Of a DNA stretch of 64,000 bases, positions 34,043 to 50,620 are shown piece by piece. This DNA comes from Candidatus Aminicenantes bacterium (GTDB lineage: Bacteria > Acidobacteriota > Aminicenantia > UBA2199), in contig JAUWQW010000002.1 of assembly GCA_030610885.1 (NCBI GenBank), positions 7,375-71,374 on the forward strand. Direction: 5' to 3'. A model generated the notes under the pieces. It searched no databases, had not been told where the DNA came from, and saw only the letters and a program-made list of their open reading frames with translations. Each line of letters begins with the position of its first letter. Positions within the stretch are counted from its first letter, which is position 1. The translations under genes and the position numbers were made by a program.

Positions 34043-35032
34043 ATGAGCTATATGTCAGATAACTCTGAATCAATTATCTCTTTATTAAAAAAGAAATTAG
34101 ACCTTAAAGGATTAGACAAAGAATATCGTGTACTTGAAATTGGAAGAAGTGAAATTATAGAAGTAGAATACGACAGTTGGGGGCGGGGACAGTATTATAA
34201 TAATTTATATATTGAAATTCCGATTGAATTTTTTATTGAAATTGAGGTTGAAATTTCAAAAATTGAAGAACTTTTAAAAAAAGAACTGGAATCATTAAAC
34301 AGAGGTGATACAGGCGAGCATATCAGTTCAATCACAATAAATGCATCAAAAGAAACATCTCCTGCAGGAATTCCTTTATCAAAAATAAATAAAACTAATG
34401 GAGATTCTCTTTGGGAAAAAGGGAATTTTAGACTCTTTCTTAGTCATGTTTCAACTTCAAAGAAATTAGCACATGAATTAAAAGAAGATCTTCTTAAATA
34501 TGGGGTGTCAGCATTTGTAGCACATGATGATATAGAACCTACTTCTGAATGGCAACTAAAAATTGAGGAAGCACTTCAAAGTATGGAGGCACTTACTGCA
34601 ATAATAACCAAGGACTTTCAGAGTAGTTTTTGGTGCGATCAAGAGACTGGAATTGCAATAGGATTAAAAAAACTAGTTGTTCCTGTCCGTATGGGTGCGG
34701 ATCCACATGGATTCTTAGGAAAGTATCAGGGACTATCTGGTTTTGATAAAGAAGCTATCCAAATTTCAAAAGAAATCTTTACTGCATTGACCGGACATGA
34801 ATCTACAAGAATTAAAATGGCATTAGCGGTAATTCAACTTTTTGTTCATTCTGATTCATATTCCAATGCCATATTTAACATGAGTCTTCTTGAACAACTT
34901 CCTGTAATAACTCCAGATATGGCAGAGCAACTAAAAAAATCAGTTAATGAAAATTCACAAATAAATGGGGCTTTTGGTATTTCTGAACGTGTATCTCAAT
35001 TACTGAATAATAAGGGCTATAAAACTAGGTGA
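34043..35032 (+). CDS. TIR-domain protein (bacterial TIR_2-like, ThsB-like), with ~125-aa N-terminal and ~100-aa C-terminal extensions of unknown fold
   Basis: aa ~128-225: FRLFLSHVSTSKKLAHELKEDLLKYGVSAFVAHDDIEPTSEW...ALTAIITKDFQSSFWCDQETGIAIG...LVVPVR matches the TIR pattern (FISH/SY start, I.PG..W loop, S.WC..E with conserved Glu). Confidence 0.65.
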   Translation: MSYMSDNSESIISLLKKKLDLKGLDKEYRVLEIGRSEIIEVEYDSWGRGQYYNNLYIEIPIEFFIEIEVEISKIEELLKKELESLNRGDTGEHISSITINASKETSPAGIPLSKINKTNGDSLWEKGNFRLFLSHVSTSKKLAHELKEDLLKYGVSAFVAHDDIEPTSEWQLKIEEALQSMEALTAIITKDFQSSFWCDQETGIAIGLKKLVVPVRMGADPHGFLGKYQGLSGFDKEAIQISKEIFTALTGHESTRIKMALAVIQLFVHSDSYSNAIFNMSLLEQLPVITPDMAEQLKKSVNENSQINGAFGISERVSQLLNNKGYKTR

Positions 35033-35365
35033 TTATTTTCTTAAAATGTTTTAAAAATCTTATCTGCAGTAATAATCGAACTTTTTGGAGAATTTTCCAC
35101 AGTAGGGGAAAGCTAAAGGGGACAGTTAATTTATCTTACCTATGTTAACCTGTTTTTTCTGGGGCTGTCATAAATTGCCAAAATTTTCATTTTTACACAA
35201 ATTTTTGATTTCTAAATGTATCAGTACAGATTATATTTATCAAGGATGATAATAACAGAAAATTAAATATCCAAGGAGCGGATATTTTAAGATTTTAAGT
35301 TTTATTAAAAATATGATATAAATTTATTTTATATTGGTTTTTTAAACAGAATCAGGAGATTTTTA

Positions 35366-36436
35366 ATGAAAAATAAAAATAAGTCAGAAAAGATGAAACA
35401 TGCAACTGATATGTTACTAAAAGAACGTAATTTTATTTCAGCTATTCTGGAAACTACTGGTGCACTGGTTGTCCTTTTTGATAGTCAGGGGAGATTTATT
35501 CGAACCAATGAAGCGTTTGAAAGAATCACAGGTTTTGAAATAATTGATATTGTTGGCAAAACATTTTGGGAAGTTTTGTTAATACCGGACGATGTGGAAC
35601 ATATAAAGGGAATATTAGATAAAATAATGTCAGGAGAATTCCCCGTTGAATATCAGAGTAAAATTGTTACCAGAGGAGGCAAGACACGATCGATTGTATG
35701 GTCAATAACTGCACTGAAAGATGGTAGAGGGACTATTGAATATATTATTGGATCCGGAATTGATATTACAGAAAGCATGGTTGTTAAAGAGCTATTAAAA
35801 GAGACCAGTCAGAACCTTATTCAGAGTGAGAGGAAGTACAGAAGCCTTATCGCCAATATGCCGGGTGCCGTATACCGCAGCAGATTAAGTAGTGAGGATT
35901 CAGTAGAGTTTTTAAATAACCAGATTGAAGAAATTTCGGGATATCCGGCATCCGATTTTTATCAGGATCGGAAGAGATCGTTTAAAAGCATTGTCTATCC
36001 AGATGATTATGAATGTTTAATGAAAACCATTCAGAAGGGAATTGATAAAAAAGAACCCTATAGAGTTGAATATAGGATCTTACATGTTGATGGTTCGGTT
36101 CGATGGGTATCTGAGAGAGGTCAGGGCATTTTTGATGAAGATGGACAGGTTTTATGGATTGATGGAATGATTTTTGATATTACTGAACGAAAGAATCTTG
36201 AGAAAGAGAGAGAGGTAATGATCAGGGAACTGACCGATGCATTGAATAAGGTTAAAACACTTCGAGGGCTTTTACCCATTTGTTCGAATTGTAAAAAAAT
36301 CAGGGATGATAAGGGGTACTGGAATCAGATTGAAGAGTATATAAAGGAGTATTCAGATGCGGAATTCAGCCATAGTATTTGTCCGGAGTGTGCTCAAAAA
36401 TTGTATCCTGAGTTTTATAAAAAAAAATCGGAATAA
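35366..36436 (+). CDS. PAS/PAC sensor protein with C-terminal Cys-rich zinc-ribbon-like tail; no kinase or GGDEF output
   Basis: Two PAS-like segments (FISAILETTGALVVLFD..., NMPGAVYRSRLS...). C-terminus LPICSNCKKIRDDKGYWNQIEEY...FSHSICPECAQ. Confidence 0.6.
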   Translation: MKNKNKSEKMKHATDMLLKERNFISAILETTGALVVLFDSQGRFIRTNEAFERITGFEIIDIVGKTFWEVLLIPDDVEHIKGILDKIMSGEFPVEYQSKIVTRGGKTRSIVWSITALKDGRGTIEYIIGSGIDITESMVVKELLKETSQNLIQSERKYRSLIANMPGAVYRSRLSSEDSVEFLNNQIEEISGYPASDFYQDRKRSFKSIVYPDDYECLMKTIQKGIDKKEPYRVEYRILHVDGSVRWVSERGQGIFDEDGQVLWIDGMIFDITERKNLEKEREVMIRELTDALNKVKTLRGLLPICSNCKKIRDDKGYWNQIEEYIKEYSDAEFSHSICPECAQKLYPEFYKKKSE

Positions 36437-36470
36437 TCAAAATGAATCAGATTTTTCTAAAAACATATAA

Positions 36471-37937
36471 ATGAAAGGAGATTATAGGATGAGAAAAGAA
36501 ATAAAAGTTATTTTTGTTTTTGTTGCAGTTATTATTATTTTGTTTTTATATTCATGCTCGGGAAAGGGAGAAGAGAAGAGAGATGCTCAAATAAATTCTT
36601 CTGAAAAGATTTATGAAAAAAAAGAACTAGGAGAACCAGCAACTCAACCCTCAGGGGAACAGAAAGTTCAAGAAAAATCGGTTAATAAAGCTGTTTGTGT
36701 AAATATAGTTCGGTTTTCATTTACAGATGAAGTGGCTAAGGTTAAAGCTCCTGCAGGTAAAATATTTCTGGTTCTTGAAACCAAATGGGAAAATATTCAT
36801 CCAAAACAGAAGATTGAGAAAAGCAAGCTAGAAGGAAAAAGAGATCACACAATGGGAATGAAAAAATTAATGCAGGGTGGAGAAGAGAAAAAAGAGGAAT
36901 ATGTAGATGCTGATGTAGCATACATGGTAAGAGAATTTGTAAATCATGCTTATATATTAGCTGATGGAAAAAGTTTCAGTATGGATAAAACCACAGCTGA
37001 GATTCCAGAAGGAATTAATCCCAAAGGTGATTTCATCCTTCCAAAATTTGGTGATACAAAAAAAGTTAAATTTGTTTTCCTGCTTCCAGGTGATCATGAG
37101 AATTTGGCATTCCATTTTTTTGATTATAATTACGGACATATTCTAATTCCAATCAAAGGGGATCCACTCATTGCAAGAGGTAAGGATCAACTGAAGGGAA
37201 AATTTCTTGGTGAAATTAAAAGTGATTTTGTCAATATCAATGCTCTTGAGATCAGATTTTCAAATGAATATAAAGGTAAAAAAGCACCTGACAGCTGGCA
37301 TTATGCTCTGGTTGATCTGGCAGGAAAGAGCCTCTCAGGACAAAGGGTGAAAGACATAGTTCAGATTAAGCCAGAATCTTATGTCTGGGTCAGTACTGAA
37401 GAGGGTTATCTTTACTATAGCTGTGGCGGAAGCACAACAGATGAGGGATTTATTCGCTTTACACCTGAGGTTTATCAGCAACAGAGCGTGGCTTTTCTAT
37501 TGCCTGATATAATTAAAAATATTAACCTGGGTATCCGGATACGCAATCAAGTGTTTGTTTTGAATCTTAGTAAAGATTTTAAAAAGAAGATTCCCAATCC
37601 TATTGAGTCACATCGGGATGGAGATGTGATGGAGGTAATGGTCTATGGGATTGAAAAGAGAGATAATAAGATTATCCTTAATCTTGGGATTCAATCTCTG
37701 GCCAAGAGCGGAGTGGAGATACAGAGAAAACAGCAGTTTATTCTGATTGCCAATGAACAGAAAATTTATTTGAATGATGATGAAACCAATTCAGGTCTTT
37801 TTCGTCCGCCTTCTCCCTTTGTAATTCCTCCAGGATTTTTTGTTCGTTTTGAACTTATATATACTTCTGATATATCTCCAGAAAAGCTTTATTTCAGGGG
37901 ATTTAAAAGTGAAAAATATTTTATATTAAAATTTTAA
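36471..37937 (+). CDS. hypothetical lipoprotein
   Basis: Signal peptide with lipobox LFLYSC|SG. 488 aa, no recognisable motif. Confidence 0.45.
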   Translation: MKGDYRMRKEIKVIFVFVAVIIILFLYSCSGKGEEKRDAQINSSEKIYEKKELGEPATQPSGEQKVQEKSVNKAVCVNIVRFSFTDEVAKVKAPAGKIFLVLETKWENIHPKQKIEKSKLEGKRDHTMGMKKLMQGGEEKKEEYVDADVAYMVREFVNHAYILADGKSFSMDKTTAEIPEGINPKGDFILPKFGDTKKVKFVFLLPGDHENLAFHFFDYNYGHILIPIKGDPLIARGKDQLKGKFLGEIKSDFVNINALEIRFSNEYKGKKAPDSWHYALVDLAGKSLSGQRVKDIVQIKPESYVWVSTEEGYLYYSCGGSTTDEGFIRFTPEVYQQQSVAFLLPDIIKNINLGIRIRNQVFVLNLSKDFKKKIPNPIESHRDGDVMEVMVYGIEKRDNKIILNLGIQSLAKSGVEIQRKQQFILIANEQKIYLNDDETNSGLFRPPSPFVIPPGFFVRFELIYTSDISPEKLYFRGFKSEKYFILKF

Positions 37938-37969
37938 TTAAAACATTTTAAAACTAAGAGAGGAGTTAA

Positions 37970-40900
37970 ATGGGGTTTAAACAAATTTTTAAAGATGGTT
38001 TTGGGGAGTTCAAGAGGCGTTCCAAAATAAAAAGATTAAAAAGAAAACTGACAATCAGAGAGAAAATATTTTCAGATGAATTAACTCTCCTGGGGCAGAA
38101 AGCCTGGGAATTAAAATTGGATTTAAGTGAATATAGTTGTATTACTGAACATATTATTTCTTCTCAAAATGATCTTGACAGTATTACTAAAAGACAGCAG
38201 GAACTAGAGAATCAGAGGGTACGGATTGAACAGAAAAGAGGATCAGAAAATGATAATTTTAATTCTCAGCTAAATGCAATTGAGGCTCGAAAAAAGGAGA
38301 TTGATTTAAAATTAGTTGAATTGAATAAGGAGTCCAGAGAGATACAGAAAGAAATTGATAGGATTCAAGATCGCCTCAACCAGATAAAACGAGAGAAGGA
38401 AAAACTTGAATTAAAGATTTCGGATAACCAGACGACAGATGAAGAAAAAGTTCCTATTGAGAAAAAAATACAGTCTATAGAAGAAGAGAGGAATAATCTT
38501 GAATTAAAACCAGAAAAATCATCTAAAAAAAAAGATGAACTTCTGGAAAGTATGATGCCCTTTGAGGATCAGTCAAGCAAATTCCAGGCAAAAATTGATG
38601 AAATAAGAAAAGAGCAAAAAACTATATCAGAAAAATATGACCAGGAACTGAAAAAAACACAAAGAGAGATTTCTGATTGTCAGAAGGAGCAAAAAAAGGC
38701 AAATAGAGAAAAAATTGGTTATTTTCATAAACTTGGAAAGGCCCTTTTCTCTTCAAATTTTGTGAATAAATCGGTTAATACAGAATTGAGTACTGTAAGG
38801 AATGCAAGCAGTGAAATAAAGAATCAGGAAATGGATATTAAATCCCTTGAAGAGAGTGGAACTCCGGAATCAAAGAGGGCATTGTGGAAGTTGACGGGCC
38901 TTGTGGTTTTATTATTTGTTTTAGTCGCTGGGATTGTTTTTGTGGTAAGGATGATATCCCCTCAGGAGAATGGTAAAGAGAGAGATAGAATCAAGGAAAG
39001 GCAGGTGGCTTCTTTAGCGGAGAGAGGTATTAAATCAACATTGAACAAAAGGGAATTTGCAAAGGATTCTCAGGAGCAAGTGATAAACAAAAATGTACAG
39101 ATCGATTGGAGTGATCTGGAAATATCAGAGCATACGCTGGAAGGATTAAACCAGATATCTTTTAAACTTGAGAATTTATTTCAGGAATTTGAAAATTCTG
39201 TTTCCAATTCAAAAAAAGAAATTTCAAGTGCTCAAAGAATTATGAGTGATATTGGGAAAGATAGTCCAGAAAAACTGTTTGGATGGGTTCGGGATAATAC
39301 ATTTTTTATTCCATATCAGGGATCTCTGAGAGGCTCTGAAGGGGTGTTAATAGATAGATTGGGCAATAGCTTGGACAGAGCGATTTTACTGCACAAATTA
39401 TTAAAACTGGCTGGATATAACACCCGCCTGGCCAATGGGAGATTGACATCTGAGCAATCAAAAGAAATAATAGAAAAAATAATACCACCTCCGGATATAG
39501 ATTCCTTTATAGATGGCATTCCCATCTTAGAATCGACCAGGGAGCTCATAAAAAGGTGTTCTCATGAATACGGTATTCCCCAAGATGAGTTATTTAAAAC
39601 AATAAAAGAGAAAAAAATAGAAAAACAGCAAACAGTTGCAAAGATATCTGAAAGGGTGAATAAACTGACACCTCAACTGCTGGATCTTGTTAGAAATTTT
39701 CAGGACACAGATGTCAAAAAGATGAGACGAACCATGCTTGAATCTATCCAGGATCACTGGTGGGTGCAGTTTCAAAAGGACTCCAACTGGGTTGATTTGG
39801 ATCCAACCTCACCAGATTCTTTACCAGATGAACGTTTAACTCAAAGTGAAAGATATATTCAGCCAGAAGAACTAAACGATTCTCTCCTCCACAGGATTAC
39901 AATAAGGGTAATCATTGAACAATGGAAGGATAAACAGTTAAAGGAGTTTGTGGTGCTGAGCCAAGAGTTGCAGCCCTCAAAATGGATTGGTAAACGGATT
40001 GCGCTGGGACATCATCCTGCAGAGTGGCCAAAGTCTATAAATCTCTTTAAAGAGAAAAAGCCTTTAAGTGCCTTGAGAAAAAAAATACTGGATCAGAAAA
40101 TATGGACCCCAGTATTGGTTATGGGATCAAAAAATGTAACGAGTTTGAGTTTCTCAGATACAGGAGAAGTAAGAAAAAAGGCTTTAAAGCGTAAAAAAGA
40201 TGTAAGGAGTATTTTAAAGACATTCTCACTATCTGGCAGAGCCATGCCTGGGGAGGATTTGAAAAAAGATCATAAAGGAAAATCCCAATTAACGGCAGAG
40301 TGGATCGAATACGAGATTTTCTCGCCGGGAAAGCCAACCAGGAAAATACGGAGAGAGGTGTTTGATTTAATAGGACCCGGTTCCCGTTTCAAAAAGGAGA
40401 TATCTATCCCAGTAATCTCTTTAAAATTGCAGATGGAAAGAAATCTGGCTCTCATGGGCCAAACTGAGATTCTGCCATTGTGCTGTCAGTTGTCAAAAAC
40501 CTTTGTTGGGAATTTGATAAATGGAATCTTTCTATCCACCAAGAAAAACTTGCTTTCTATCTTAAAGGAGAAAAATTTAAAAAATATCGATTTTGTAATA
40601 GATAAAATGAATCAGTTACAGATGAAACAGATTCAACTTTATAGGCTGGCTCTTGAAAGATACAGTAAGGATAACATAATTGTTACTCCGAATATTTTAA
40701 GTTTTCATTCTTTCCTCAAAGAAAGCCATGATGAATTTTTTAACTTATACAATGCACTTGATATTGTGTCCAATGAGGTCTATCCTATCCTGAATAATAA
40801 ACCTGAAAATTTTTTTCAGGTTCGATTGAGACAAGGAATACGTGATTCTATCACCGAATTAGTAGTTATGTCTCGTTATGGGGGTAAGGAGAATTTAGCT

Positions 40901-41443
40901 GAGTTGTGCAGAGAAATGGAAAGGAATGGCGTTATATGGCTGGCAGCAGATTCTTCTAAAAATATATCTTTACTTGAATCAAACCTTCCTGAAGATATTG
41001 TTGCCCGTATGAAAAAACAATTAAATCAAGGATTTGTTGTTGTTGCCCCAGAAAAGGTTGTTTTTATAAATAGTAAACCGGTTGTTATATGGTGGCGGAT
41101 AGATCCCAGAACTGGAGATACACTGATTATAGGAGAAAAGGGATGGGGCCAGGCTATGGTCGAATATGTCGAAGAGGTAAACATTGTTATTCAGATGAAG
41201 GATATTGTTGGGTTTTATTCCAATCTCATGAAATGTGTTTATATGTCATCCGCTTCCTTTATGACAGGCGGTAAGGCAAATCGAAATCTCTTTTACAGGT
41301 GCGTTTTAGAGTTGATTTGCAGTAAGGTAAACAGCGCTGTCGAGTCATTTTTGGATATTGAAGCCGACTGGACCAATTTTATTCTTAAGCAGACAATCGG
41401 GTATATCTGGGGAGAATTTTGCAAAGCACTTTTTGGGAATTAG
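37970..41443 (+). CDS. large single-pass membrane protein: N-terminal coiled coil, TM helix, transglutaminase-like (papain-fold) domain with Cys replaced by Ser
   Basis: 1157 aa. TM LVVLLFVLVAGIVFVV. TGase-like motifs GNSLDRAILLHKLLKLAGYNTRLANG (G-x-S in place of G-x-C), HWWVQF...NWVDLDPT (His and Asp motifs). N-terminus paralogous to the next gene. Confidence 0.6.
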   Translation: MGFKQIFKDGFGEFKRRSKIKRLKRKLTIREKIFSDELTLLGQKAWELKLDLSEYSCITEHIISSQNDLDSITKRQQELENQRVRIEQKRGSENDNFNSQLNAIEARKKEIDLKLVELNKESREIQKEIDRIQDRLNQIKREKEKLELKISDNQTTDEEKVPIEKKIQSIEEERNNLELKPEKSSKKKDELLESMMPFEDQSSKFQAKIDEIRKEQKTISEKYDQELKKTQREISDCQKEQKKANREKIGYFHKLGKALFSSNFVNKSVNTELSTVRNASSEIKNQEMDIKSLEESGTPESKRALWKLTGLVVLLFVLVAGIVFVVRMISPQENGKERDRIKERQVASLAERGIKSTLNKREFAKDSQEQVINKNVQIDWSDLEISEHTLEGLNQISFKLENLFQEFENSVSNSKKEISSAQRIMSDIGKDSPEKLFGWVRDNTFFIPYQGSLRGSEGVLIDRLGNSLDRAILLHKLLKLAGYNTRLANGRLTSEQSKEIIEKIIPPPDIDSFIDGIPILESTRELIKRCSHEYGIPQDELFKTIKEKKIEKQQTVAKISERVNKLTPQLLDLVRNFQDTDVKKMRRTMLESIQDHWWVQFQKDSNWVDLDPTSPDSLPDERLTQSERYIQPEELNDSLLHRITIRVIIEQWKDKQLKEFVVLSQELQPSKWIGKRIALGHHPAEWPKSINLFKEKKPLSALRKKILDQKIWTPVLVMGSKNVTSLSFSDTGEVRKKALKRKKDVRSILKTFSLSGRAMPGEDLKKDHKGKSQLTAEWIEYEIFSPGKPTRKIRREVFDLIGPGSRFKKEISIPVISLKLQMERNLALMGQTEILPLCCQLSKTFVGNLINGIFLSTKKNLLSILKEKNLKNIDFVIDKMNQLQMKQIQLYRLALERYSKDNIIVTPNILSFHSFLKESHDEFFNLYNALDIVSNEVYPILNNKPENFFQVRLRQGIRDSITELVVMSRYGGKENLAELCREMERNGVIWLAADSSKNISLLESNLPEDIVARMKKQLNQGFVVVAPEKVVFINSKPVVIWWRIDPRTGDTLIIGEKGWGQAMVEYVEEVNIVIQMKDIVGFYSNLMKCVYMSSASFMTGGKANRNLFYRCVLELICSKVNSAVESFLDIEADWTNFILKQTIGYIWGEFCKALFGN

Positions 41444-41485
41444 AATAAAAAAGTAAACTATTGAATTATATTGTTAGGAGGTAAA

Positions 41486-44400
41486 ATGGGAATAAAAAAG
41501 ATTTTTAAAGATGGTGTAAATGAAATCAAAAGAAAAGCAGAATTTCATAGAGCAAGAAGGAATCTTAAGGAAAAAGAGAATATTAAAAAAGAAAAATTAA
41601 TACTTCTGGGTAAAAAGGCCTGGGAGTCAAAATTGGATTTAAAAAACTTTCCAGACCTTTATGAATTACTATCCAAGACTCAGAAAAACCAAGATGAGCT
41701 GGATGAAAAAGTGACTGGAATGAATCAACGAATGCAAGAGTATGAGAATAATAAAAAAGTTAAGAATTCAGATTTTGATAACCAAAGAAAAAGAATTGAA
41801 GAAAAGAAATCAAAGGTGGATTCAAAATTGAATGATGAGCAAAGTACTCTAAAAAATACCCAACTGGAAAAAGAAAAAGTTCAGAAAAGACAGAAACAAA
41901 TTGAAAAAGAAGAAGAAGAAGAACAATTAAGTACAAAGATGTCTGATGCTCAAGCGACCTTAGAGGAAAAAACCGAATTTGAAAAAAAGCAAACACAATT
42001 AATAAAGGAAAAGAAACAACTTTCTGAAAAAATTGAAAAATCTTCTGAAACAATAAAATTATTGGATGAAAAAATTAAACCACTGAAAGAACAATCAACC
42101 CAGTTTGAGAATGAAATCAATATTATCCGAGAAAATCAGAAAGAGGAAATTGGAGAGTTTGATACACTAATATCCGAAGAACAAAAAAAACTTGATGAAT
42201 GCAGGAAAAAACAGGAAGAAGTAAGCAAGCAGCAAAAACAGAATTTTTATCAATTGGGAATACAGCTTTCATCTGCCAGTACTGCAGATAAAATGGTTGC
42301 ATCTGAATTTTCAGAAATAAAGAACATAGAAAAAGAAATTGAATCTATTAAACAGGAAATTCAATCTCTGGAGAACCGGGCTTCTGAATCAAAAGGGGCA
42401 ATCTGGAAAATGGTTGGTCTGGCAGCAGCATTCCTGATTATGATTTTTGGAATTGTTTATACTGTTGGCGTTCTGTCAAAACAAAAAGTAACCAAACAAG
42501 ATACTGTTAAAGAGGACAGAATAACAGTTTCAGAGATAGATAAAAGTGAAAAAAAGGAGATTCCTGTTTCTGATAAAGGTTTAGAAGAAAGTGAAAAAAT
42601 TATGGAACCAAAGGAAGTAAACATACCTGTTGCTATCGGGGGGGCAGAGAATATGCTCTCCTCCCGCTCAAAATGGGAAGTGTGGGATAACATTAAGGAA
42701 AAGAAACATGAGGGGAAGTGGGAAATGAGATTAACTGAGATTTCAGGTGTATCCATAGGTGGAGAAAAAATTGCAACCATGCTTTTGGCCGGCGAAAAGG
42801 ATTGGAATAACTATCGGATAAATACCACAGCTCTAAGAATCGGAGTGGGTGGAGAGAAAGGATTTCTGGCTGGTCTCATCTTTGGTTATCTGGATTCCAA
42901 ACATTTTTATTTTTTAGGGTACAATTCCTCTGAGAATTGCTTTCAGATGAGTTGCAAGACCCCCGAAGGTTATCAGGTTCTGGAAACCTTCGAAGTAGAA
43001 TTCCCGCCAAATAAAGAGATCTCCCTTCAGCTTGACTTTGCAGACTCCCGGGTAATTTTTATGGCTAATGATGAAGTTATTATTGATAGGTATGATAGCC
43101 GTTTTTCAAAAGGAAAATTCGGACTTGGTGCTTCCAATATGAAAACAGATAAAATACTTTTTGATAAGCTAAGCGTTCAATCAATCAAACCAGAGGATTT
43201 GCCTGCAAAATCCTTTTTAGATTTACTATCTTCCAAGAGGGGAGCAAAGCTCATTTCACCGTCAAACGGAATTTTTAATACTCTTATTGACCATGAAACA
43301 AACTTAAAAAACAAAAAAATGAATCCCAAAGGCAGCTTTGTTATTAATCTAAAAAAAGATAAACTCCCTTCAGAGGCAGTTTATACATTTTTCAACAATA
43401 TGGAAGCAGAAGTGCACAAAGTAGGTGTCCAGCTGGGCAATTTTTTTTTCCCAAAAAATATTGAGTTCCTTATTTCAGAAAAGAGCGCAAAAAAGGGATT
43501 TAAATCCCTTGGCGTATTTAAAATAAAACCTGAAAAAAACGGCTACCAAGAATTTGCAATAGATCCGACAACTGGAAGATTCTTCAAGATTCGAATTCTA
43601 TCTGCAGGCCCATCTGGCATGGATTCTCAGATGGAAAAGAAATTTATAGAGAAAATGGGGAGGCAAATTCTGATTGCTGAAATCTTTGTTTATGGATATC
43701 AGAAAGTCAAACATAAACCATCTGTGGATACTTTAAATGTTGAAAATAAAAAGGACAGAAACAAAGATATCCATTTTATAGAAGATTTTTTATCAGGAAA
43801 CCTAAACAAATGGGAAGTATGGGTGGATCCAAAGGCAGATTCACCTAAAAGTGAATGGGGAGTGAATGTTTTAAGATTTTCTCCTGTATCATCCATGCTA
43901 ATCAATGGAGAAAAGGAATGGAAAAACTATTCCTTTAAGACAAATATATTCCCTCTTTCTCCAAGAAAGGGAAGAGATGTACATGATTATGGGATTGTAT
44001 TTGGCTACTTGGATCCAGAGCATTTTTATATTGTTTCCTACAATAAAAGATTGAAAAGGTTTGAGCTTAAAGCCAATTCACCCCAGGGATTTGAACTTCT
44101 TTCATTTGCAGAGATTAAGGGCCCAAAAGGAAAATTGGTGCCACTCCAGGTTGATTTTTTCTCAGGTCGAATAGCTTTTAAAGCCGATAATCAGACTATT
44201 TTTGACATTGATGAGAGTCGATATACATCGGGTAAAGCAGGTATCTTTACCTCTGGATCTACTCCCTATAAGCAGGGAAGAGGCGCTGTATTATTCAAGG
44301 ATTTTAAAATGATCCCTCTGAATTCAGAAACATATCCACAGAGGGATTTTCAGGATCTTTTATCTTTTAGAAGGGGAGCCAGTGTTATTTATAGGTCTGC

Positions 44401-46600
44401 TCCTCCTGCAGGGCACGAGATGCAGAGGTTGATCAATCATTCATTAACAGAAGGAGACTATAAAGAAAGTGCATATATCCTGAGATTATCAGAAACCAAA
44501 CTTCCCGAAGAAGCAGTATTCTGCTTTCCTCAAGGAAGATTTGCTGAAATTCATAAGATAGGATTTAAACTTGCGGGTGATTATTTTCCAAAAGAGATTA
44601 AATTTTTTACTTCCAACGAAACTCCCAAAACGGGGTTTAAACCCCTCACAACCATAACTCTTGAACCAAAAGCAAACAGCTACCAAGAATTCGAAACCCC
44701 TCAAAAAATTGCCAAGTACTTAAAAATTCAGATCACTGAAGGATACAATGCCAAGAAGATTTTTGTCCCGGAGATTTATGTAAAGGGTCATTTCAAAGAG
44801 CTTTCTCGTTTAAGGGAGACCAAAGAAATGTATAAGAAAACAGGGATTCGAGAAATTGAACCCAATAATTCCATAAAAGAAGCCCAAAAACTTCCCCTGA
44901 ATATTTATCTGACTGGAGATGTTTCTCAGAAGGATGATGATTATTATTTTGTCTCTCTGTCAAATAAAAATGAAAAAGATGTGGTTTTGGTAGTTACCAT
45001 CAAAAGAATAGGGATGATTAAACCAGGATTTACTCTGGAAACAGGTAAAGGAACCGCTATTTCTCCATCAAATATCCAGAGTGAAGGTGATACAATTACA
45101 TATTTTTATGATGTAAAACCAGATGATTATTTTCTGAAACTGGTTCAGCCTGAGACTTACCTGACCATAGTTTATGATGATAGTGGAAGTATGAAAGAGA
45201 GCGTTCCAGTTGTTAAACGGGTTTTGAAAGGTTATCTGGATAGTCTAAAAGAGGGGATATTCCTCAAATTGATAAAATACACAAATAAGGTTTTTAATCT
45301 ATCTGATTTTACCAGTGAGCCGGCGCTCTTAAAAAAGGCTGTTGAAAGTGAAGTTCTAGGCAGAGGTAATACAGATACTTTCAAAGGTTTGATGGCTGCC
45401 ATTGAAAGCATCAAGATAAAAGACGGAAATCGTGCAATTATCGCAATTCTGGATGAGCTGGTTTGTCAAACCCGTGAATGCAAGCAACAGTATATCGAGC
45501 TATGGGATGCTATTCTGGATACAGGGATAGTCTTTTCCACAATTGGTGTTCAGTCTGGATGGCACGGAAAAACACGATATTTTGGAAACACCAACTATCA
45601 AATATTCAGTGAGTTTGCCTATGCAACAGGAGGAGAGTTTTATCATTCTCCATCGGATGAGTTAATTAAAAAGAGTGTAGACAGAATTTTTAAACAGATG
45701 ACATCCCCTGTCCAGTATCTGGTAAAAGCAGCAATTGAGGAGAAAAAGGAGGAGGTTAAGAAAGAACCGAAAGTGAAAAAACCAGGGTCTATTCAGGTGC
45801 TATTTGAAAAAGGGGCAGAGAAAGAGATAGAGAAAAATATTGAATTGATTCTGGATGCGTCTAATTCAATGTGGGGACAGATTCAGGGTCGTAGTAAAAT
45901 CGAAATTGCGCGCGAGGTTCTGATAAAGCTGGTGCGCGGACTGCCCGATAAAATAAATGTTGGTTTGAGGGTCTATGGACACAGATATAAACTGAAAGAC
46001 AGACGGGCCTGTAAGGACTCAGAACTTATTGTTCAGATTGGAAAACTGAATAAAGATAAAATGATCCAGATAGTTAATCGAATAATCCCGAGAGGAAAAA
46101 CTCCATTGGTTCATTCAATCCTTCAAACACCCGGTGATTTTGAAAACATTGGCAAAGGGACAGTAATTCTAATTAGTGATGGAATTGAGAGCTGCAATGG
46201 GGATATCAATTCTGTGGCATCGATTCTTAAAAAATCAGGACTCGATTTAAAGGTTCATATTGTTGGTTTTGATATCAAGGGGCGGCAGGCTCGGAAGCAG
46301 TTGGAGATGATAGCTGAATCCACTGGCGGACGATACCTTGATGCAAAAAATTCAAAGGAACTGCTTTCATCACTGGAAAAAACTCTCCAGTTTGAATATC
46401 GTCTACTGAATGATAAAGGAAAGATTGTGGTAAAAGGTTATGTTGGGGAAAAGGAGATTGAGGTAATGGAAGGAAGTTATACACTTCGCCTGATGGTTGA
46501 TCCAGTCTTTTTGGAGAAGACCGTCGTTATTAGCCCTGAATCAAAACAGAGTTTTATTTTAAAAAGAGAGAATAATAAATGGATTGTCAATAAAGAGTAA
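41486..46600 (+). CDS. large single-pass membrane protein: N-terminal coiled coil, TM helix, two tandem LamG/DUF1080-like beta-sandwich modules, two vWA domains (start refined to ATG 41486 after AGGAGGT RBS)
   Basis: N-terminus MGIKKIFKDGVNEIKR paralogous to MGFKQIFKDGFGEFKR of the upstream gene. TM MVGLAAAFLIMIFGIVYTVGV. Internal repeats WEVWDN...GYLDSKHFYFLGYN / WEVWVD...GYLDPEHFYIVSYN. MIDAS motifs VYDDSGSM and LDASNSM. Confidence 0.65.
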   Translation: MGIKKIFKDGVNEIKRKAEFHRARRNLKEKENIKKEKLILLGKKAWESKLDLKNFPDLYELLSKTQKNQDELDEKVTGMNQRMQEYENNKKVKNSDFDNQRKRIEEKKSKVDSKLNDEQSTLKNTQLEKEKVQKRQKQIEKEEEEEQLSTKMSDAQATLEEKTEFEKKQTQLIKEKKQLSEKIEKSSETIKLLDEKIKPLKEQSTQFENEINIIRENQKEEIGEFDTLISEEQKKLDECRKKQEEVSKQQKQNFYQLGIQLSSASTADKMVASEFSEIKNIEKEIESIKQEIQSLENRASESKGAIWKMVGLAAAFLIMIFGIVYTVGVLSKQKVTKQDTVKEDRITVSEIDKSEKKEIPVSDKGLEESEKIMEPKEVNIPVAIGGAENMLSSRSKWEVWDNIKEKKHEGKWEMRLTEISGVSIGGEKIATMLLAGEKDWNNYRINTTALRIGVGGEKGFLAGLIFGYLDSKHFYFLGYNSSENCFQMSCKTPEGYQVLETFEVEFPPNKEISLQLDFADSRVIFMANDEVIIDRYDSRFSKGKFGLGASNMKTDKILFDKLSVQSIKPEDLPAKSFLDLLSSKRGAKLISPSNGIFNTLIDHETNLKNKKMNPKGSFVINLKKDKLPSEAVYTFFNNMEAEVHKVGVQLGNFFFPKNIEFLISEKSAKKGFKSLGVFKIKPEKNGYQEFAIDPTTGRFFKIRILSAGPSGMDSQMEKKFIEKMGRQILIAEIFVYGYQKVKHKPSVDTLNVENKKDRNKDIHFIEDFLSGNLNKWEVWVDPKADSPKSEWGVNVLRFSPVSSMLINGEKEWKNYSFKTNIFPLSPRKGRDVHDYGIVFGYLDPEHFYIVSYNKRLKRFELKANSPQGFELLSFAEIKGPKGKLVPLQVDFFSGRIAFKADNQTIFDIDESRYTSGKAGIFTSGSTPYKQGRGAVLFKDFKMIPLNSETYPQRDFQDLLSFRRGASVIYRSAPPAGHEMQRLINHSLTEGDYKESAYILRLSETKLPEEAVFCFPQGRFAEIHKIGFKLAGDYFPKEIKFFTSNETPKTGFKPLTTITLEPKANSYQEFETPQKIAKYLKIQITEGYNAKKIFVPEIYVKGHFKELSRLRETKEMYKKTGIREIEPNNSIKEAQKLPLNIYLTGDVSQKDDDYYFVSLSNKNEKDVVLVVTIKRIGMIKPGFTLETGKGTAISPSNIQSEGDTITYFYDVKPDDYFLKLVQPETYLTIVYDDSGSMKESVPVVKRVLKGYLDSLKEGIFLKLIKYTNKVFNLSDFTSEPALLKKAVESEVLGRGNTDTFKGLMAAIESIKIKDGNRAIIAILDELVCQTRECKQQYIELWDAILDTGIVFSTIGVQSGWHGKTRYFGNTNYQIFSEFAYATGGEFYHSPSDELIKKSVDRIFKQMTSPVQYLVKAAIEEKKEEVKKEPKVKKPGSIQVLFEKGAEKEIEKNIELILDASNSMWGQIQGRSKIEIAREVLIKLVRGLPDKINVGLRVYGHRYKLKDRRACKDSELIVQIGKLNKDKMIQIVNRIIPRGKTPLVHSILQTPGDFENIGKGTVILISDGIESCNGDINSVASILKKSGLDLKVHIVGFDIKGRQARKQLEMIAESTGGRYLDAKNSKELLSSLEKTLQFEYRLLNDKGKIVVKGYVGEKEIEVMEGSYTLRLMVDPVFLEKTVVISPESKQSFILKRENNKWIVNKE

Positions 46601-46636
46601 ATGGGTGGATGTGGAAGAAACTTTCAGCAAAATAGT

Positions 46637-47054: not shown

Positions 47055-47816
47055 ATGAAAAAACGACTGATTCTTTTTTGCGTATTTCTTTTTTTTATTT
47101 CTGCGTGTGGAGTCGATGAAGATGAAATTAACGAACTCGCCGAAGAATGTGCTGCAGGTGATCATGATGCCTGTTCAGAACTAGCCGACATTGCAAGGAG
47201 CGATAAAGATTGTAAAGTACGCTGCGTTGCAGGCGAGAAATTGACTGATCAAAAGATTATAGCCGGCATTGCAATGAGCGATAAAGATTGGGGAGTAAGC
47301 TTCGTTGCAGTCGAGAAATTGACCGACGAGGCTGCGTTAGCAAGTATCGCTCTTGAGGGTAATTTTCATAACAGTGCTGCCCTTAAAAAGCTGGCGGATC
47401 CAGCCGCACTTGCTAAAGTTGCTGTGGATGATAAAAACTGGAGAGTCCGCCTGATTCGTAAGTTTATAGCCGCGTTTGATTCCGTGCCAACTGAGCACAG
47501 AGAACGTCTCATGTTGGCCGTTTTTCCGGCTATTCGTACATTAAGCTATCCAGCAGTTTCTTCTAAAGTCGGAGATATAGTTTCAATCAAAACAAACTGG
47601 GATGGCACGAGCCAATATTACACCGGGGTTTTTATAGGACATAAGCCCGGCGAAATGTTCACATTTTCGATTAAAGTTCGAAAACTGACTGAACCTCTGT
47701 CGCATACATGGGGCACAAACTTTCCATTCAAAACCTCAAGTTTGTCATTTTTGCCTGCTGACATTAATGCCTCTGATCTCTATCAAAAAGCATTCGATAA
47801 GCTGACCGACAAATAG
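47055..47816 (+). CDS. HEAT-repeat (PBS-lyase-like) lipoprotein, visibly GC-richer than flanks
   Basis: Lipobox FFISAC|G. Repeated D(K/D)DxxVRxxAxEKLTD / DKNWRVR units typical of HEAT-like repeats. Confidence 0.55.
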   Translation: MKKRLILFCVFLFFISACGVDEDEINELAEECAAGDHDACSELADIARSDKDCKVRCVAGEKLTDQKIIAGIAMSDKDWGVSFVAVEKLTDEAALASIALEGNFHNSAALKKLADPAALAKVAVDDKNWRVRLIRKFIAAFDSVPTEHRERLMLAVFPAIRTLSYPAVSSKVGDIVSIKTNWDGTSQYYTGVFIGHKPGEMFTFSIKVRKLTEPLSHTWGTNFPFKTSSLSFLPADINASDLYQKAFDKLTDK

Positions 47817-49009: not shown

Positions 49010-50320
49010 TTAATATGTTTTTATCAGAAATAAAATTATTCCTTCTACCATATAAAAAAGACTTTCTAAGTGTTTTTCATCAAAATATTCAAGAGAGTGC
49101 TTAGGGTTATTTAACAATTTATGAATTTCGCTAACATTTCTACAGAAAAATTCGATAATTTTTTTATCCGATCTTCTTGAGTTTAATATATATTCAATTC
49201 TTTGACTTCTTGTAATCTTATCTTTTTCTTCAATGTTAAAATGTGCTTTCACTACATTATCAGGAGCAAGCTTCCGAGGGGTCCAATCCAAAAATTCTAT
49301 CATTGAAGTAGCACTTTGACGACATTTATCTGGATTATCTGAATACAAAGTCTCCCAAGCTCCTTCTCGCATTCTATCCAAATTTGGATCTATTGAAATT
49401 AATATCTTTTTCAACTTCCTATTTTTAACAGCTTCATTAGAAAAATCTATTTCAAAGTCTTTTATTTCAGGATGTTCTTTTCCTATTGGATATGGAATTG
49501 AATAAGATAAATTTTTATAAATTAAAGAAGAAGCTTCCAATTTAAAAAAATTTTTATCTATTATCAAAAGTTCCTTTTCTTTCATAATTTTTTGAATTCT
49601 CTCAAAAGAATAATCCTGAAAATATTTAGTAGTATTTAATACACTACTCATCAAAGGTTTTATGTCAGTCTTAAATATACTATTGAGAGATAAAGAATTC
49701 AAAGACGAAATTTTTGAGGATATCAACTGAGATGCTTGCAGGTTTTTGCTAAATAATGAAAAAGTTTCACTGAGCTTTTTTGTTGAACCTAAGAAAGAAT
49801 CATGTGTAGACTTTATCTTCCTTGTAATTTCGGCCATCGAAGAAAATTTAGACATCGGCTCTAATGCCATTTTCATTTCTTCTTTCATTTTAATAATAGG
49901 TTCTGATGTTATTCTCATGGTTTTAGCAATTTCTCCATAAGAAGGCCCTAATGCTCTTCTCATTACATCCATTTCTTTTATATGAGATTTATTCATTTCT
50001 CTTATCATTCTTTCTATTCCTGAATGATAAGGATATAATCTTTTTCGATCCTGCATTAGATTTTCCCCTAAAGAAATTGCAAAATTGCCTGTCATTTTTG
50101 ATAAATCTAATGCTTTTATCTCCTCTTTATATTTAGATGTTAAAAAATATCCTGCATCATTCTTTCTTACTAAATTTTCCTTTATCAACAATTTTATTGA
50201 ACGGTTGATAGATGAAGGGCTTTTATTTAAAGAATCAGCTATTCCCTTTTGAGTTCTAACTTTATTTCTTTCTAAAATATTAAGAATTCCTTTTTGAAGC
50301 TTTGATCTTCTTTTATTCAT
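49010..50320 (-). CDS. winged-HTH protein with C-terminal HEPN-like Rx5H motif (Abi-like candidate); start refined to ATG 50320 (MNKRRSKLQ) after GAGGT RBS
   Basis: N-terminal MarR/ArsR-like wHTH GILNILERNKVRTQKGIADSLNKSPSSINRSIKLLIKENLV. C-terminal CRNVSEIHK (R-x5-H). Confidence 0.45.
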   Translation of the reverse strand: MNKRRSKLQKGILNILERNKVRTQKGIADSLNKSPSSINRSIKLLIKENLVRKNDAGYFLTSKYKEEIKALDLSKMTGNFAISLGENLMQDRKRLYPYHSGIERMIREMNKSHIKEMDVMRRALGPSYGEIAKTMRITSEPIIKMKEEMKMALEPMSKFSSMAEITRKIKSTHDSFLGSTKKLSETFSLFSKNLQASQLISSKISSLNSLSLNSIFKTDIKPLMSSVLNTTKYFQDYSFERIQKIMKEKELLIIDKNFFKLEASSLIYKNLSYSIPYPIGKEHPEIKDFEIDFSNEAVKNRKLKKILISIDPNLDRMREGAWETLYSDNPDKCRQSATSMIEFLDWTPRKLAPDNVVKAHFNIEEKDKITRSQRIEYILNSRRSDKKIIEFFCRNVSEIHKLLNNPKHSLEYFDEKHLESLFYMVEGIILFLIKTY

Positions 50321-50620
50321 AATAACCTCATAAATTGATTTTAAGATTAACATTAAATCACAAATTACGGTTATTGTCAATACTATTGTGAATTAAAAGC
50401 GTAGTAAAATTTAAGAGCTTAAAGTGAACTTGGTGCTAGGCCTATATCTTTGACAATTAAAAAATAAAATTTATTATAAAAAACATTGCAAAAAACAAAA
50501 CCTGATCCCAAAATTTACATTTTAGTATGATTTCGTGTAGATTTTTTAATGAGGCAACGATACCTGTTTCATATAGATTTTTAATGATTCAACCCAAATA
50601 ATCAAGTAAGGCCATTTATG

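What the first reader, a model, noticed from the sequence alone, without database searches (positions are those of the whole stretch)
37970..46600. Tandem pair of giant single-pass membrane proteins with paralogous coiled-coil N-termini but different extracytoplasmic modules
Proteins of 1157 and ~1700 aa start with near-identical heads (MGFKQIFKDGFGEFKRR... versus MGIKKIFKDGVNEIKRK..., both then ...LLGQKAWELKLDL / LLGKKAWESKLDL). Each has ~300 aa of Lys/Glu-rich coiled coil and one TM helix. The first continues into a transglutaminase-like protease fold. The second carries two LamG/DUF1080-like beta-sandwiches and two vWA (MIDAS DxSxS) domains. Together with the preceding lipoprotein (36471-37937) and the output-less PAS sensor (35366-36436), this resembles a multi-component envelope/adhesion or sensing apparatus for which I know no described system of this composition. 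vWA plus a protease-like domain on paired coiled-coil stalks is reminiscent of vWA-dependent ternary systems but without the MoxR ATPase.
Basis: partly seen in the sequence, partly recalled or inferred. Interest (0 to 1): 0.65.

Follow-up and report, generated by a model that had tools for sequence, protein, structure and literature searches.

The report
Membrane-tethered transglutaminase-like and VWA protein trio
The two giant proteins are real paralogues at their cytoplasmic ends and, with the preceding beta-sandwich protein, form an undescribed three-part cell-envelope system found in more than 50 uncultured genomes, whose outward-facing parts differ deeply between near-identical strains.

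Summary
Protein A (37970-41443, 1157 aa) and protein B (41486-46600, 1704 aa) share a 34%-identical, almost gapless N-terminal module of about 335 aa ("HEAD" plus one TM helix; E 2e-46).

B carries two (ConA-like + discoidin/SUN-like) pairs, a PPC-like domain, two MIDAS-intact VWA domains and a C-terminal beta domain.

The pair is a lineage-specific form of a conserved trio. The trio is a three-Ig-sandwich protein (LIPO), the A ectodomain and the B C-terminal VWA module. I found it in about 50 species genomes, mostly Aminicenantes, also Woeseiaceae, Thermoanaerobaculales and cultured Indioceanicola. LIPO and B are fused in three lineages.

Between strains about 97% identical in the flanks, the ectodomains drop to 20-50% identity exactly at the TM helix.

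HEAD is a wider module, also found on unrelated small periplasmic domains. The PAS gene is not part of the core. No MoxR gene turned up in the neighbourhoods whose genes were annotated, so this is not a vWA-MoxR ternary system.

The function is inferred: an extracytoplasmic ligand-capture and processing complex with exchangeable outward-facing modules.

The parts
35366..36436 (+). Tandem-PAS protein (356 aa) ending in a CxxC...CPxC motif. It is a neighbour only in the window lineage and is not part of the conserved core.
   Evidence: Pfam PAS_3 9e-32 and PAS_4 2e-21. Present upstream in L001 and L002-4. Absent from L005, L008-L010 and L064.
36471..37937 (+). LIPO: signal/lipobox-like N-terminus (FLYSC), a disordered linker, then three DUF4352/MPT63-like Ig beta-sandwiches. 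It carries a nearly invariant flexible loop, WENIHPKQK..KLEGK.DRTMG (residues ~106-130).
37970..38890 (+). A HEAD: cytoplasmic N-terminal module, A residues 1-307. It has a conserved ~55-aa N-terminal motif followed by about 250 aa of Lys/Glu-rich heptad-periodic helix with one conserved Pro near residue 197.
   Evidence: RBS GAGGAG before the ATG. 98-100% identical to L002 while the rest of the protein is 20-54%.
38891..38947 (+). A transmembrane helix (residues 308-326). This is the point at which identity to the L002 allele collapses.
   Evidence: Kyte-Doolittle peak 3.09. The blastn match to L002 ends at 38948. Sliding identity.
38948..41443 (+). A ectodomain (~830 aa). It comprises an N-terminal helical bundle, a transglutaminase-like core (about A 435-640, window 39272-39889) with a ~100-aa helical insert, beta-rich middle domains and C-terminal helices. 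Putative triad: S467 in GNSLDR (motif 39362-39379), H596 in DHWW (39752-39763), D611 in DLDP (39794-39805).
41486..42418 (+). B HEAD: paralogue of the A head (B residues 1-311).
   Evidence: RBS AGGAGG before ATG 41486. Orthologues of B elsewhere have a cleavable signal peptide instead.
42419..42475 (+). B transmembrane helix (residues 312-330).
   Evidence: The blastn match to L002 ends at 42422.
42626..45151 (+). B variable ligand-binding array: ConA/LamG-like (381-575), discoidin/SUN-like (576-755), ConA/LamG-like (756-955), discoidin/SUN-like (956-1105), PPC/GBD-like (1106-1222).
   Evidence: Pfam TSP_C 0.015 and 1.4e-4; Sad1_UNC 3.3e-3 and 4.5e-4; GBD_IRG7_N 5e-4. All are below the gathering cut-offs when segments are scanned separately. 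For the whole protein: Sad1_UNC 30.4 bits and TSP_C 29.5 bits. Internal duplication seen in BLAST. The same array with a signal peptide occurs in L008, at 47% identity across the whole B ectodomain (389-1703). It is replaced by PPC repeats plus an alpha/alpha toroid in other genomes.
45152..45760 (+). B VWA domain 1 (residues 1223-1425), MIDAS DDSGS at 45176-45190. It belongs to the variable part.
   Evidence: Pfam VWA 4e-7. Motif coordinates. 46-54% identical to the L002 allele.
45761..46600 (+). B constant module (BCT): VWA domain 2 plus a ~80-aa C-terminal beta domain. MIDAS is DASNS (45854-45868), GKTPL (46094-) and SDG (46175-). Two invariant Cys.
   Evidence: 52-56% identical across all B-type proteins. 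MIDAS and the Cys pair are invariant or nearly so in 48 distinct sequences. 92-96% identical to L002.

Best explanation
The locus encodes a three-component complex on the outer face of the cytoplasmic membrane.

Shown:
- LIPO, the A ectodomain and the C-terminal VWA module of B (BCT) travel together in about 50 genomes. All three carry export signals. LIPO and B occur as one polypeptide in three lineages.
- The part of B in front of BCT is swapped between genomes. It can be lectin-like sandwiches, PPC repeats plus an alpha/alpha toroid, or a beta-propeller.
- In close relatives of the window organism, the A ectodomain and the B variable array are replaced together by alleles of 20-50% identity. 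LIPO, both heads and BCT stay above 89%.

Inferred:
- BCT docks through its MIDAS metal on the constant partner LIPO. The candidate contact is the invariant flexible loop of LIPO with E121 and D125.
- The variable array of B binds an external, strain-variable ligand such as a glycan, a protein or another cell's surface.
- The A ectodomain uses its transglutaminase-like cleft to bind a peptide of B or of the captured ligand. In the Ser-His-Asp majority it probably also cleaves or transamidates that peptide. A's specificity is matched to the variable part of B.
- In the window lineage both A and B are held in the membrane by paralogous, equal-length cytoplasmic coiled-coil HEAD modules. These probably co-assemble, keeping the enzyme-like protein and the ligand-binder together. 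They could also couple the complex to the cytoplasm.
- The adjacent PAS protein may be a local add-on regulator.
For: Paralogy and topology. Orthologues have signal peptides. BCT has an invariant Cys pair. The L056 fusion ends in a stretch I read by eye as PDZ plus a peptidoglycan-binding motif.

Co-conservation of the trio:
- 4-gene block in L001-L004.
- Trio in L005, L008, L009 and L064.
- HMM census of 53 species genomes with gene orders L-A-B, L-B-A and A-L-B.
- B duplicated 2-3 times in several loci.

LIPO::B fusions: L056 3028 aa, L065 1652 aa, and Indioceanicola L067 1957 aa.

Constant against variable parts:
- BCT is 52-56% identical across architectures.
- LIPO is about 50% identical across 285 clusters.
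- A is 26-35% identical.

Allelic mosaic: blastn breakpoints fall at 38948/41486 and 42422/45752. Sliding identity is. dS is saturated in the ectodomains but 0.03-0.27 in the heads, LIPO and BCT. dN/dS is below 0.5 everywhere, so all alleles are functional.

TGL fold and triad geometry. Ser/His/Asp are conserved 96-99%. Ser-bearing TGL domains have been proposed as serine peptidases, and vWA+TGL pairs have been proposed as recruit-and-cleave systems (PMC3495828). The MIDAS is intact.
Against: - No physical interaction was tested.
- No multimer model could be run, so pairing of the heads is pure inference from paralogy and conserved length.
- In a sister A subfamily (~740 aa, 18 loci), 14 loci matched the motif search. 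Their nucleophile position is Pro (6), Ser (5), Ala (2) or a spurious first match (1). It is Ala in Indioceanicola. His and Asp persist. The TGL domain may therefore be a non-catalytic peptide binder everywhere, like menin, Rad4 or Cyk3.
- Alignment of Ser467 with the catalytic Cys rests on motif similarity, Pfam envelope ends and secondary-structure position. It does not rest on a residue-level structural superposition.
- One A homologue (L007) has no LIPO or BCT within 10 kb.
- HEAD also occurs on unrelated small proteins, so it need not imply A-B pairing.
- The domain calls in the B variable array are mostly below Pfam cut-offs.
Confidence: 0.45

Rival explanations
1. LapA/LapG/LapD-like adhesin control. 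B is a surface adhesin. A is its dedicated periplasmic protease, which releases or activates it. The cytoplasmic heads, and perhaps the PAS protein, give inside-out control of cleavage.
Against: The nucleophile is Ser, not Cys, and is lost in a subfamily. No LapD-type GGDEF/EAL/HAMP protein, no type I secretion genes and no RTX repeats appear in any annotated neighbourhood. Most B orthologues are plain secreted proteins, and B is fused to LIPO in three lineages. That looks like a stable complex rather than a released adhesin. PAS is lineage-specific.
Confidence: 0.15
2. A conflict or recognition system, such as surface exclusion of phage or other invaders, or self/non-self (kin) recognition between cells. 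The exchanged ectodomain cassettes would be specificity determinants under balancing or diversifying selection.
For: Ancient, functional alleles are confined to the outward-facing parts, with breakpoints at the membrane boundary, and each module has its own history. At least three allele classes exist in one lineage. Tandem B paralogues carry different N-terminal arrays. In the window the locus lies between a STAND-NTPase/TIR insertion and a pPIWI-nuclease gene.
Against: There are no PADLOC hits for A, B or LIPO beyond a coiled-coil match. The trio is a near-universal locus at a conserved chromosomal position in Aminicenantes, next to adh_short and the aldolase/PfkB gene. It has a highly conserved partner (LIPO). 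Typical defence islands are patchy by comparison. The flanking defence genes are absent from L001 and L002 and are therefore independent insertions. No toxin or effector domain was found.
Confidence: 0.2
3. Glycan handling. The trio captures polysaccharide for nutrition, or takes part in assembly or cross-linking of an exopolysaccharide or S-layer. The lectin-like arrays of B would be carbohydrate-binding modules.
For: ConA/LamG-like and discoidin-like domains are typical carbohydrate binders. Glycosyltransferase genes lie just upstream in the L001/L002 synteny. GH38 and sugar-kinase genes lie near the locus in other Aminicenantes. TGL enzymes can cross-link proteins.
Against: No glycoside hydrolase, lyase or transporter is part of the conserved set. 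The neighbouring sugar genes are on the opposite strand and differ between lineages. Many B proteins replace the lectin-like array with PPC repeats plus a toroid. The binding-domain calls are weak.
Confidence: 0.1
4. The head similarity is a compositional artefact of two unrelated Lys/Glu-rich coiled coils, and the genes are neighbours by chance.
For: Both heads give only generic coiled-coil hits (SMC, Rad50, tropomyosin) in family and PDB searches.
Against: E 2e-46 with composition adjustment. The N-terminal motif is non-coiled and conserved. The alignment is gapless and the TM helix position is conserved. The gene pair is conserved in L001-L004 and L068.
Confidence: 0.01

Closest known systems
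MoxR - vWA(DUF58) - YebA/TgpA-type transglutaminase-like membrane protein operon (Zhang & Aravind 2012, PMC3495828)
   Same: A membrane-anchored TGL-domain protein is encoded next to a vWA protein. Some relatives of A have a 7-8-TM N-terminal domain like YebA/TgpA. The proposed logic, in which vWA recruits and TGL cleaves, may carry over.
   Different: No MoxR AAA+ gene appears in any annotated neighbourhood. The vWA partner is a large exported multidomain protein rather than DUF58. The nucleophile is Ser. There is a third, beta-sandwich partner. The whole trio lies outside the cytoplasm, where no ATPase can act.
LapG (bacterial transglutaminase-like cysteine proteinase) with LapD and the adhesin LapA
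   Different: The match is only 126 aligned residues at 15% identity. A has Ser instead of Cys. There is no LapD, no type I secretion system and no RTX repeats. A is itself membrane-anchored and 800 aa larger.
Ser-containing TGL domains (CCDC135/DRC7 subset, menin)
   Different: These are eukaryotic, cytoplasmic or nuclear scaffold proteins with no shared context. Activity is unproven in both cases.
vWA-MoxR ternary conflict systems (Kaur et al. 2020, PMC7159879)
   Same: A vWA protein carries highly variable appended domains, with architectural diversification between close relatives.
   Different: The defining MoxR and the third component (VMAP, iSTAND, FtsH or beta-propeller) are absent. 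Those systems are cytoplasmic and carry effector domains. None is seen here.
DUF4352/MPT63-like lipoproteins (B. subtilis YjhA, YcdA; M. tuberculosis MPT63)
   Different: There is no sequence-level match. LIPO has three tandem copies and a unique invariant loop. The function of the known proteins is itself unknown.

Membership tests
Transglutaminase-like (TGL / papain-like) superfamily - protein A | Core fold: an N-terminal helix bearing the nucleophile, packed on a beta-barrel | tested here: met
Transglutaminase-like (TGL / papain-like) superfamily - protein A | Cys-His-Asp/Glu catalytic triad | tested here: not met
   The position of Cys is Ser (GNSLDR) in 141 of 147 family representatives. 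His is kept in 145/147 and Asp in 146/147. In the sister subfamily the position is Pro, Ala or Ser.
Transglutaminase-like (TGL / papain-like) superfamily - protein A | Pfam Transglut_core above the gathering score | tested here: not met
   17.8 bits against a cut-off of 23. Relatives score 17-24 bits.
LapG / BTLCP system | LapD-type receptor, LapA-type RTX adhesin and type I secretion genes in the neighbourhood | tested here: not met
   None appears in the annotated neighbourhoods of L001-L010 and L064-L066.
LapG / BTLCP system | Calcium site and di-alanine cleavage specificity | not testable with these tools
   This needs residue-level superposition and biochemistry.
MoxR-vWA-TGL (YebA/TgpA) operon | Adjacent MoxR AAA+ ATPase gene | tested here: not met
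   No MoxR or AAA_3/AAA_5 gene appears in the Pfam-annotated neighbourhoods. The only AAA-like gene in the window, 24849-29432, is a STAND-type NTPase inside an unrelated insertion.
MoxR-vWA-TGL (YebA/TgpA) operon | TGL protein encoded next to a vWA protein | tested here: met
   A-type and BCT-bearing genes are adjacent, or separated only by LIPO, in about 50 loci.
vWA-MoxR ternary conflict systems | MoxR plus a VMAP, iSTAND, FtsH or beta-propeller third component; cytoplasmic | tested here: not met
   These components are absent. The vWA protein is exported, with a signal peptide in orthologues. Definitions are taken from PMC7159879.
von Willebrand factor A domain - protein B | Pfam VWA above the gathering score, and a complete MIDAS (DxSxS...T...D) | tested here: met
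   59.7 bits against a cut-off of 23.8, in two stretches. Motifs: DDSGS at 1231; DASNS at 1457, GKTPL at 1537 and SDG at 1564. The motif is conserved in 48 BCT sequences.
DUF4352/MPT63-like Ig sandwich - LIPO | Fold similarity | tested here: met
Bacterial lipoprotein - LIPO | Lipobox [LVI][ASTVI][GAS]C after the signal h-region | tested here: inconclusive
   The window protein has LYSC. Only 6 of 121 homologues have a lipobox-like motif, and 56 have any Cys in residues 11-45.
Known anti-phage defence systems (PADLOC) | Match to a PADLOC model | tested here: not met
   The only match is a weak coiled-coil hit of the B head to LmuB (E 0.004). A and LIPO give none.

The most novel reading that the evidence does not exclude
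A previously unrecognised, class-wide extracytoplasmic recognition system. It would have a constant docking pair (LIPO plus the VWA module of B), exchangeable ligand-facing cassettes (the A ectodomain plus the B variable array) that recombine at the membrane boundary as ancient alleles, and a new cytoplasmic coiled-coil HEAD module that assembles the exported partners. On this reading it is a specificity-determining surface system for kin or non-self recognition, or for invader exclusion. It would be built on a large unannotated Ser-His-Asp branch of the transglutaminase-like superfamily.
Probability: 0.25. Interest if true: 0.8.

Novelty: new variant of a known kind. Interest (0 to 1): 0.62.

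Why it matters
Three unannotated protein families turn out to form one conserved envelope system in a major uncultured lineage (Aminicenantes) and beyond:
- a TGL branch with more than 7000 cluster representatives and Ser at the nucleophile position;
- a three-Ig-sandwich partner protein;
- a coiled-coil HEAD membrane anchor.

The sharp switch from about 98% to about 40% identity exactly at the TM helix, in both proteins, is a clean natural experiment. It marks which surfaces face a variable outside partner and which face constant partners.

One cultured bacterium, Indioceanicola profundi SCSIO 08040, carries a two-gene version, so the system can be tested experimentally. If the Ser-His-Asp TGL domain is active, it would be a new class of extracytoplasmic serine peptidase or transamidase.

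Tried and rejected
- Sequence-profile searches of the A ectodomain, LIPO and HEAD against PDB sequences found nothing specific: ribosome-recycling-factor noise for A, no hits for LIPO, and generic coiled coils for HEAD.
- Foldseek against the PDB gave no hit with E<1e-3 for the whole A ectodomain.
- The AFDB library was unavailable.
- The word-indexed homologue search made A and B look very rare, with 16 and 8 hits. This was an artefact of coiled-coil words saturating the candidate list. The exhaustive profile search found 7140 representatives.
- PADLOC and NCBIfam gave nothing for A, B or LIPO.
- The promoter and terminator scans were at or below shuffle expectation and say nothing about operon structure.
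- tblastn of the A ectodomain against plasmids found nothing.
- I could not establish the window's taxonomy. Cluster look-ups of housekeeping proteins returned no organism names. "Aminicenantes-related" is only an inference from who else carries LIPO.
- I considered a PspA/ESCRT-III-like nature for the head. No family search listed PspA_IM30 among the hits, so I dropped the idea.
- Literature searches found no description of this gene trio.
Full report
**1. What is in the sequence**

The window is AT-rich (about 30% G+C) and chromosomal; it also encodes glyS, gcvPA/PB/T, serC and iorA. Four tightly spaced plus-strand genes occupy 35366-46600:
- a tandem-PAS protein;
- a 488-aa exported beta-rich protein, called LIPO here;
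- protein A (37970-41443, 1157 aa);
- protein B.

The mechanical ORF for B starts at TTG 41471. ATG 41486 is preceded by AGGAGG and gives the N-terminus MGIKK, which matches all homologues, so B is 1704 aa. Gaps between the genes are 34, 32 and 42 bp.

**2. The paralogous heads are real**

BLASTP of A against B gives 34% identity over 349 residues with four gaps, E 2e-46, and nothing else of significance. The shared module, HEAD, has four parts:
- a non-coiled, strongly conserved first ~55 residues (M-G-[FIL]-K-x-I-F-K-D-G...L-x-L-L-G-x-K-A-W-E...L-D), with 16 invariant columns among nine heads;
- about 250 residues of Lys/Glu-rich helix with significant 3.5-residue hydrophobic periodicity and one conserved proline near residue 197;
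- a conserved juxtamembrane W-K;
- a single TM helix.

Twelve heads from A- and B-type proteins align in 308 columns for 305-residue inputs, so the length is tightly constrained.

The B head is not a recent copy of the A head. It is 38-40% identical to the heads of Aminicenantes A proteins and 34% identical to the window A head.

**3. Domain content outside the membrane**

The family motif is G-N-S-L-D-R...D-H-W-W...D-L-D-P. In the model the Ser is the first residue of a helix, the His sits in a strand, and the Asp follows the next strand. That is the canonical TGL triad layout as described in PMC3495828, with Ser in place of Cys. Among 147 family representatives, Ser is kept in 141, His in 145 and Asp in 146.

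Two cautions apply. First, the Ser/Cys equivalence rests on motif, Pfam envelope and secondary-structure position, not on a residue-level superposition. Second, in a sister subfamily of ~740-aa A proteins that keeps the same gene partners, 14 of 18 loci matched the motif search, and the position there is Pro (6), Ser (5) or Ala (2), plus one spurious match. In the Indioceanicola protein it is Ala, while His and Asp persist. Catalysis is therefore plausible for the window protein but not assured.

*Protein B.* It has two (ConA/LamG-like + discoidin/SUN-like) pairs, a PPC/GBD-like domain, VWA1, VWA2 and a ~80-aa C-terminal beta domain. Both MIDAS motifs are intact. The sandwich-domain calls are individually weak.

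**4. Topology**

The heads lack signal peptides and precede the only TM helix. The following features place the C-terminal parts outside:
- Orthologues of the A ectodomain start with a signal anchor or a 7-8-TM domain.
- Orthologues of B start with cleavable signal peptides.
- BCT has two invariant Cys.
- The C-terminus of one fusion protein reads, by eye only, as PDZ plus a peptidoglycan-binding motif.

The heads are therefore cytoplasmic and everything else is extracytoplasmic. This is inference from sequence, not experiment.

**5. The pair belongs to a conserved trio**

The four-gene block recurs in relatives with 90% (L001) and about 54% (L002-4) identical A and B.

LIPO has 285 homologous clusters at about 50% identity, nearly all from Candidatus Aminicenantes MAGs. 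Searching species-representative genomes with the LIPO profile gave 53 loci. HMMs for LIPO, the A ectodomain, BCT and HEAD showed LIPO + A-ectodomain + BCT together in essentially every locus long enough to judge. The orders are L-A-B, L-B-A or A-L-B, and there are often two or three tandem B genes. The trio also occurs in Woeseiaceae, Thermoanaerobaculales and an uncultured gammaproteobacterium.

Loci reached from A homologues show the same partners. The one exception is L007, where A stands alone.

LIPO and B are fused into one protein in three independent lineages:
- L056, 3028 aa;
- L065, 1652 aa;
- the cultured alphaproteobacterium Indioceanicola profundi, 1957 aa, next to an A-type gene.

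This argues for a physical LIPO-B complex.

BCT is 52-56% identical whatever precedes it. The preceding array is swapped between genomes: a lectin-like array, 1-4 PPC repeats plus a prenyltransferase-like toroid, or a Vgb-lyase-like propeller.

An exhaustive profile search shows that the A ectodomain family is large, with 7140 representatives at E<1e-3 and 2760 at E<1e-30. The earlier impression of rarity was a search artefact.

**6. Heads are an add-on module**

In the census loci, HEAD sits on A only in the window lineage and in a subset of Aminicenantes (L005/6, L015 and others). It sits on B only in the window lineage.

A metagenome scan with the HEAD profile found 38 loci. Their architectures were:
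- A-type proteins within the trio;
- many stand-alone HEAD-TM proteins with an unrelated ~190-aa C-terminal domain (500-534 aa);
- one protein with MORN repeats;
- several that are HEAD-TM only (327-330 aa), one of which abuts a TamB-POTRA-Omp85 fusion gene.

HEAD is thus a portable cytoplasmic anchor or assembly module of unknown function. It has no Pfam model and gives only generic coiled-coil hits in the PDB.

The PAS gene accompanies only the window lineage (against 16, 21-23, 72).

**7. Allelic mosaic**

Against L002 the window is 95-98% identical in DNA through the flanking genes, PAS, LIPO and the A head. The match then stops at 38948, inside the A TM helix. It resumes for the B head (41486-42422, 92%), stops at the B TM helix, and resumes for BCT (45752-46611, 92%).

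| Segment | Amino-acid identity, window vs L002 |
|---|---|
| A residues 1-300 | 98-100% |
| A residues 301-1157 | 20-54% |
| B head | 76-96% |
| B residues 301-1400 | 0-56% |
| B residues 1451-1650 | 92-96% (80% over 1651-1700) |

Against L001, identity is high throughout.

Synonymous divergence between the window and L002 is 0.03-0.11 for PAS, LIPO and the A head. It is 0.20-0.27 for the B head and BCT, and saturated for both ectodomain segments. Between the window and L001 the ranking differs; for example the B head has dS 0.48 while the B variable array has 0.13. Each module therefore has its own history. dN/dS is below 0.5 everywhere it could be estimated (it is undefined where dS is saturated), and there are no disruptions.

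At least three deeply divergent A-ectodomain allele classes (38-48% identity) exist in this lineage.

The A ectodomain and the B variable array changed together, while LIPO, both heads and BCT did not. I read this as follows. The outward-facing, co-varying parts contact each other or a common variable external partner. The constant parts contact constant partners.

**8. Most likely mechanism (inferred; confidence about 0.45)**

- BCT docks through its MIDAS on LIPO.
- The variable array of B binds an external ligand.
- The TGL cleft of A binds, and in Ser-His-Asp members probably cleaves or transamidates, a peptide of B or of the captured ligand.
- In this lineage the two paralogous heads co-assemble under the membrane and hold A and B together. 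They possibly link the complex to cytoplasmic inputs.

Rivals:
- a LapG/LapA-like adhesin-release circuit (0.15);
- a conflict or kin-recognition system (0.2);
- glycan capture or envelope assembly (0.1).

The compositional-artefact reading is excluded.

**9. Relation to known systems**

The closest described logic is the MoxR-vWA-YebA/TgpA TGL operon, and structurally LapG. The defining MoxR, LapD/T1SS and catalytic Cys were looked for and not found. I therefore do not file this locus as a member of either. It is not a vWA-MoxR ternary system. It is best described as a new, extracytoplasmic, ATPase-free variant of the vWA + TGL partnership, with a third conserved beta-sandwich partner and, in this lineage, a novel paired coiled-coil anchoring.

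**10. Limits**

There is no experimental data. The AFDB library was unavailable. The source organism's taxonomy is not established. Several domain calls in B are below curated thresholds.

Noticed in passing
window 24700-35250: A ~10.5-kb block absent from the otherwise syntenic L001 and L002. It separates the glycosyltransferase genes from the PAS gene and contains four notable genes: a 1527-aa AAA/nSTAND1-like NTPase (24849-29432, minus strand, G+C 0.39-0.43 against ~0.30 background), a zinc-ribbon+TM protein (30747-31346), a TM+TPR protein (32594-34015) and a TIR-domain protein (34043-35032; TIR_2 8e-14, weak ThsB-like PADLOC hits). It looks like an inserted defence island.
   Followed up: partly
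window 24684-24769, 30575-30626, 30683-30748: Short sequences repeated elsewhere. The first two match L002 16588-16672, next to an IS110 transposase. The third matches the PAS-LIPO intergenic region of L001 and L002. They may be insertion scars or mobile-element ends bordering the island.
   Followed up: no
window 49010-50380 (-) and 51034-51933 (-): A winged-HTH protein with a C-terminal pPIWI-associated nuclease domain (pP_pnuc_1, 2.8e-16) but no obvious pPIWI gene beside it, and an IS200-like Y1 transposase. The region downstream of B also differs between the window, L001 and L002.
   Followed up: no
window 36285-36436 (C-terminus of the PAS protein): The PAS protein ends in a Cys4-type motif, LLPICSNCKKIRDDKGYW...HSICPECAQKLY, and has no recognised output domain. 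This may be a small zinc-binding output module.
   Followed up: no
window 36786-36860 (LIPO residues ~106-130): A loop rich in Lys, Gln, Glu and Asp (WENIHPKQKIEKSKLEGKRDHTMG) that is nearly invariant across 121 homologues, although AF2 gives it low confidence. It is a candidate MIDAS ligand or TGL substrate/binding peptide.
   Followed up: partly
L078 5992-12905: A HEAD+TM-only gene (330 aa) whose stop overlaps the start of a 1975-aa AsmA/TamB + POTRA + Omp85 fusion protein. This hints that the HEAD module may be linked to envelope-biogenesis machinery more generally.
   Followed up: partly
L070, L071, L073, L081, L090-L094, L096, L097, L101 (stand-alone HEAD proteins): A family of 522-531-aa proteins with the layout HEAD-TM plus an unannotated ~190-aa C-terminal domain ending ...FDLSKLQ. 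They appear to be monocistronic with no conserved neighbours. L105 carries MORN repeats instead.
   Followed up: partly
L067 (Indioceanicola profundi SCSIO 08040 plasmid NZ_CP030127.1, record ~171.5-179.7 kb): A cultured alphaproteobacterium carries a two-gene version: an A-like 762-aa protein (nucleophile position Ala) followed by a 1957-aa LIPO::VWA fusion. The PLSDB gene table lists no genes in this stretch.
   Followed up: partly
P0003 (1077 aa, 93% identical to the window A ectodomain): This close allele of A lacks about 80 residues of the head (alignment columns 122-200). This is either a real in-frame deletion in the coiled coil or an assembly artefact. It would bear on whether head length matters.
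   Followed up: no
window 47055-47816: A 253-aa lipoprotein just downstream of B with an internal repeat (…DKDW.V…A.EKLTD…) that looks HEAT/LRV-like by eye, though Pfam gave no hit. It is not conserved downstream of B in L001 or L002. L065 has a HEAT/LRV protein downstream of its B-type gene.
   Followed up: no
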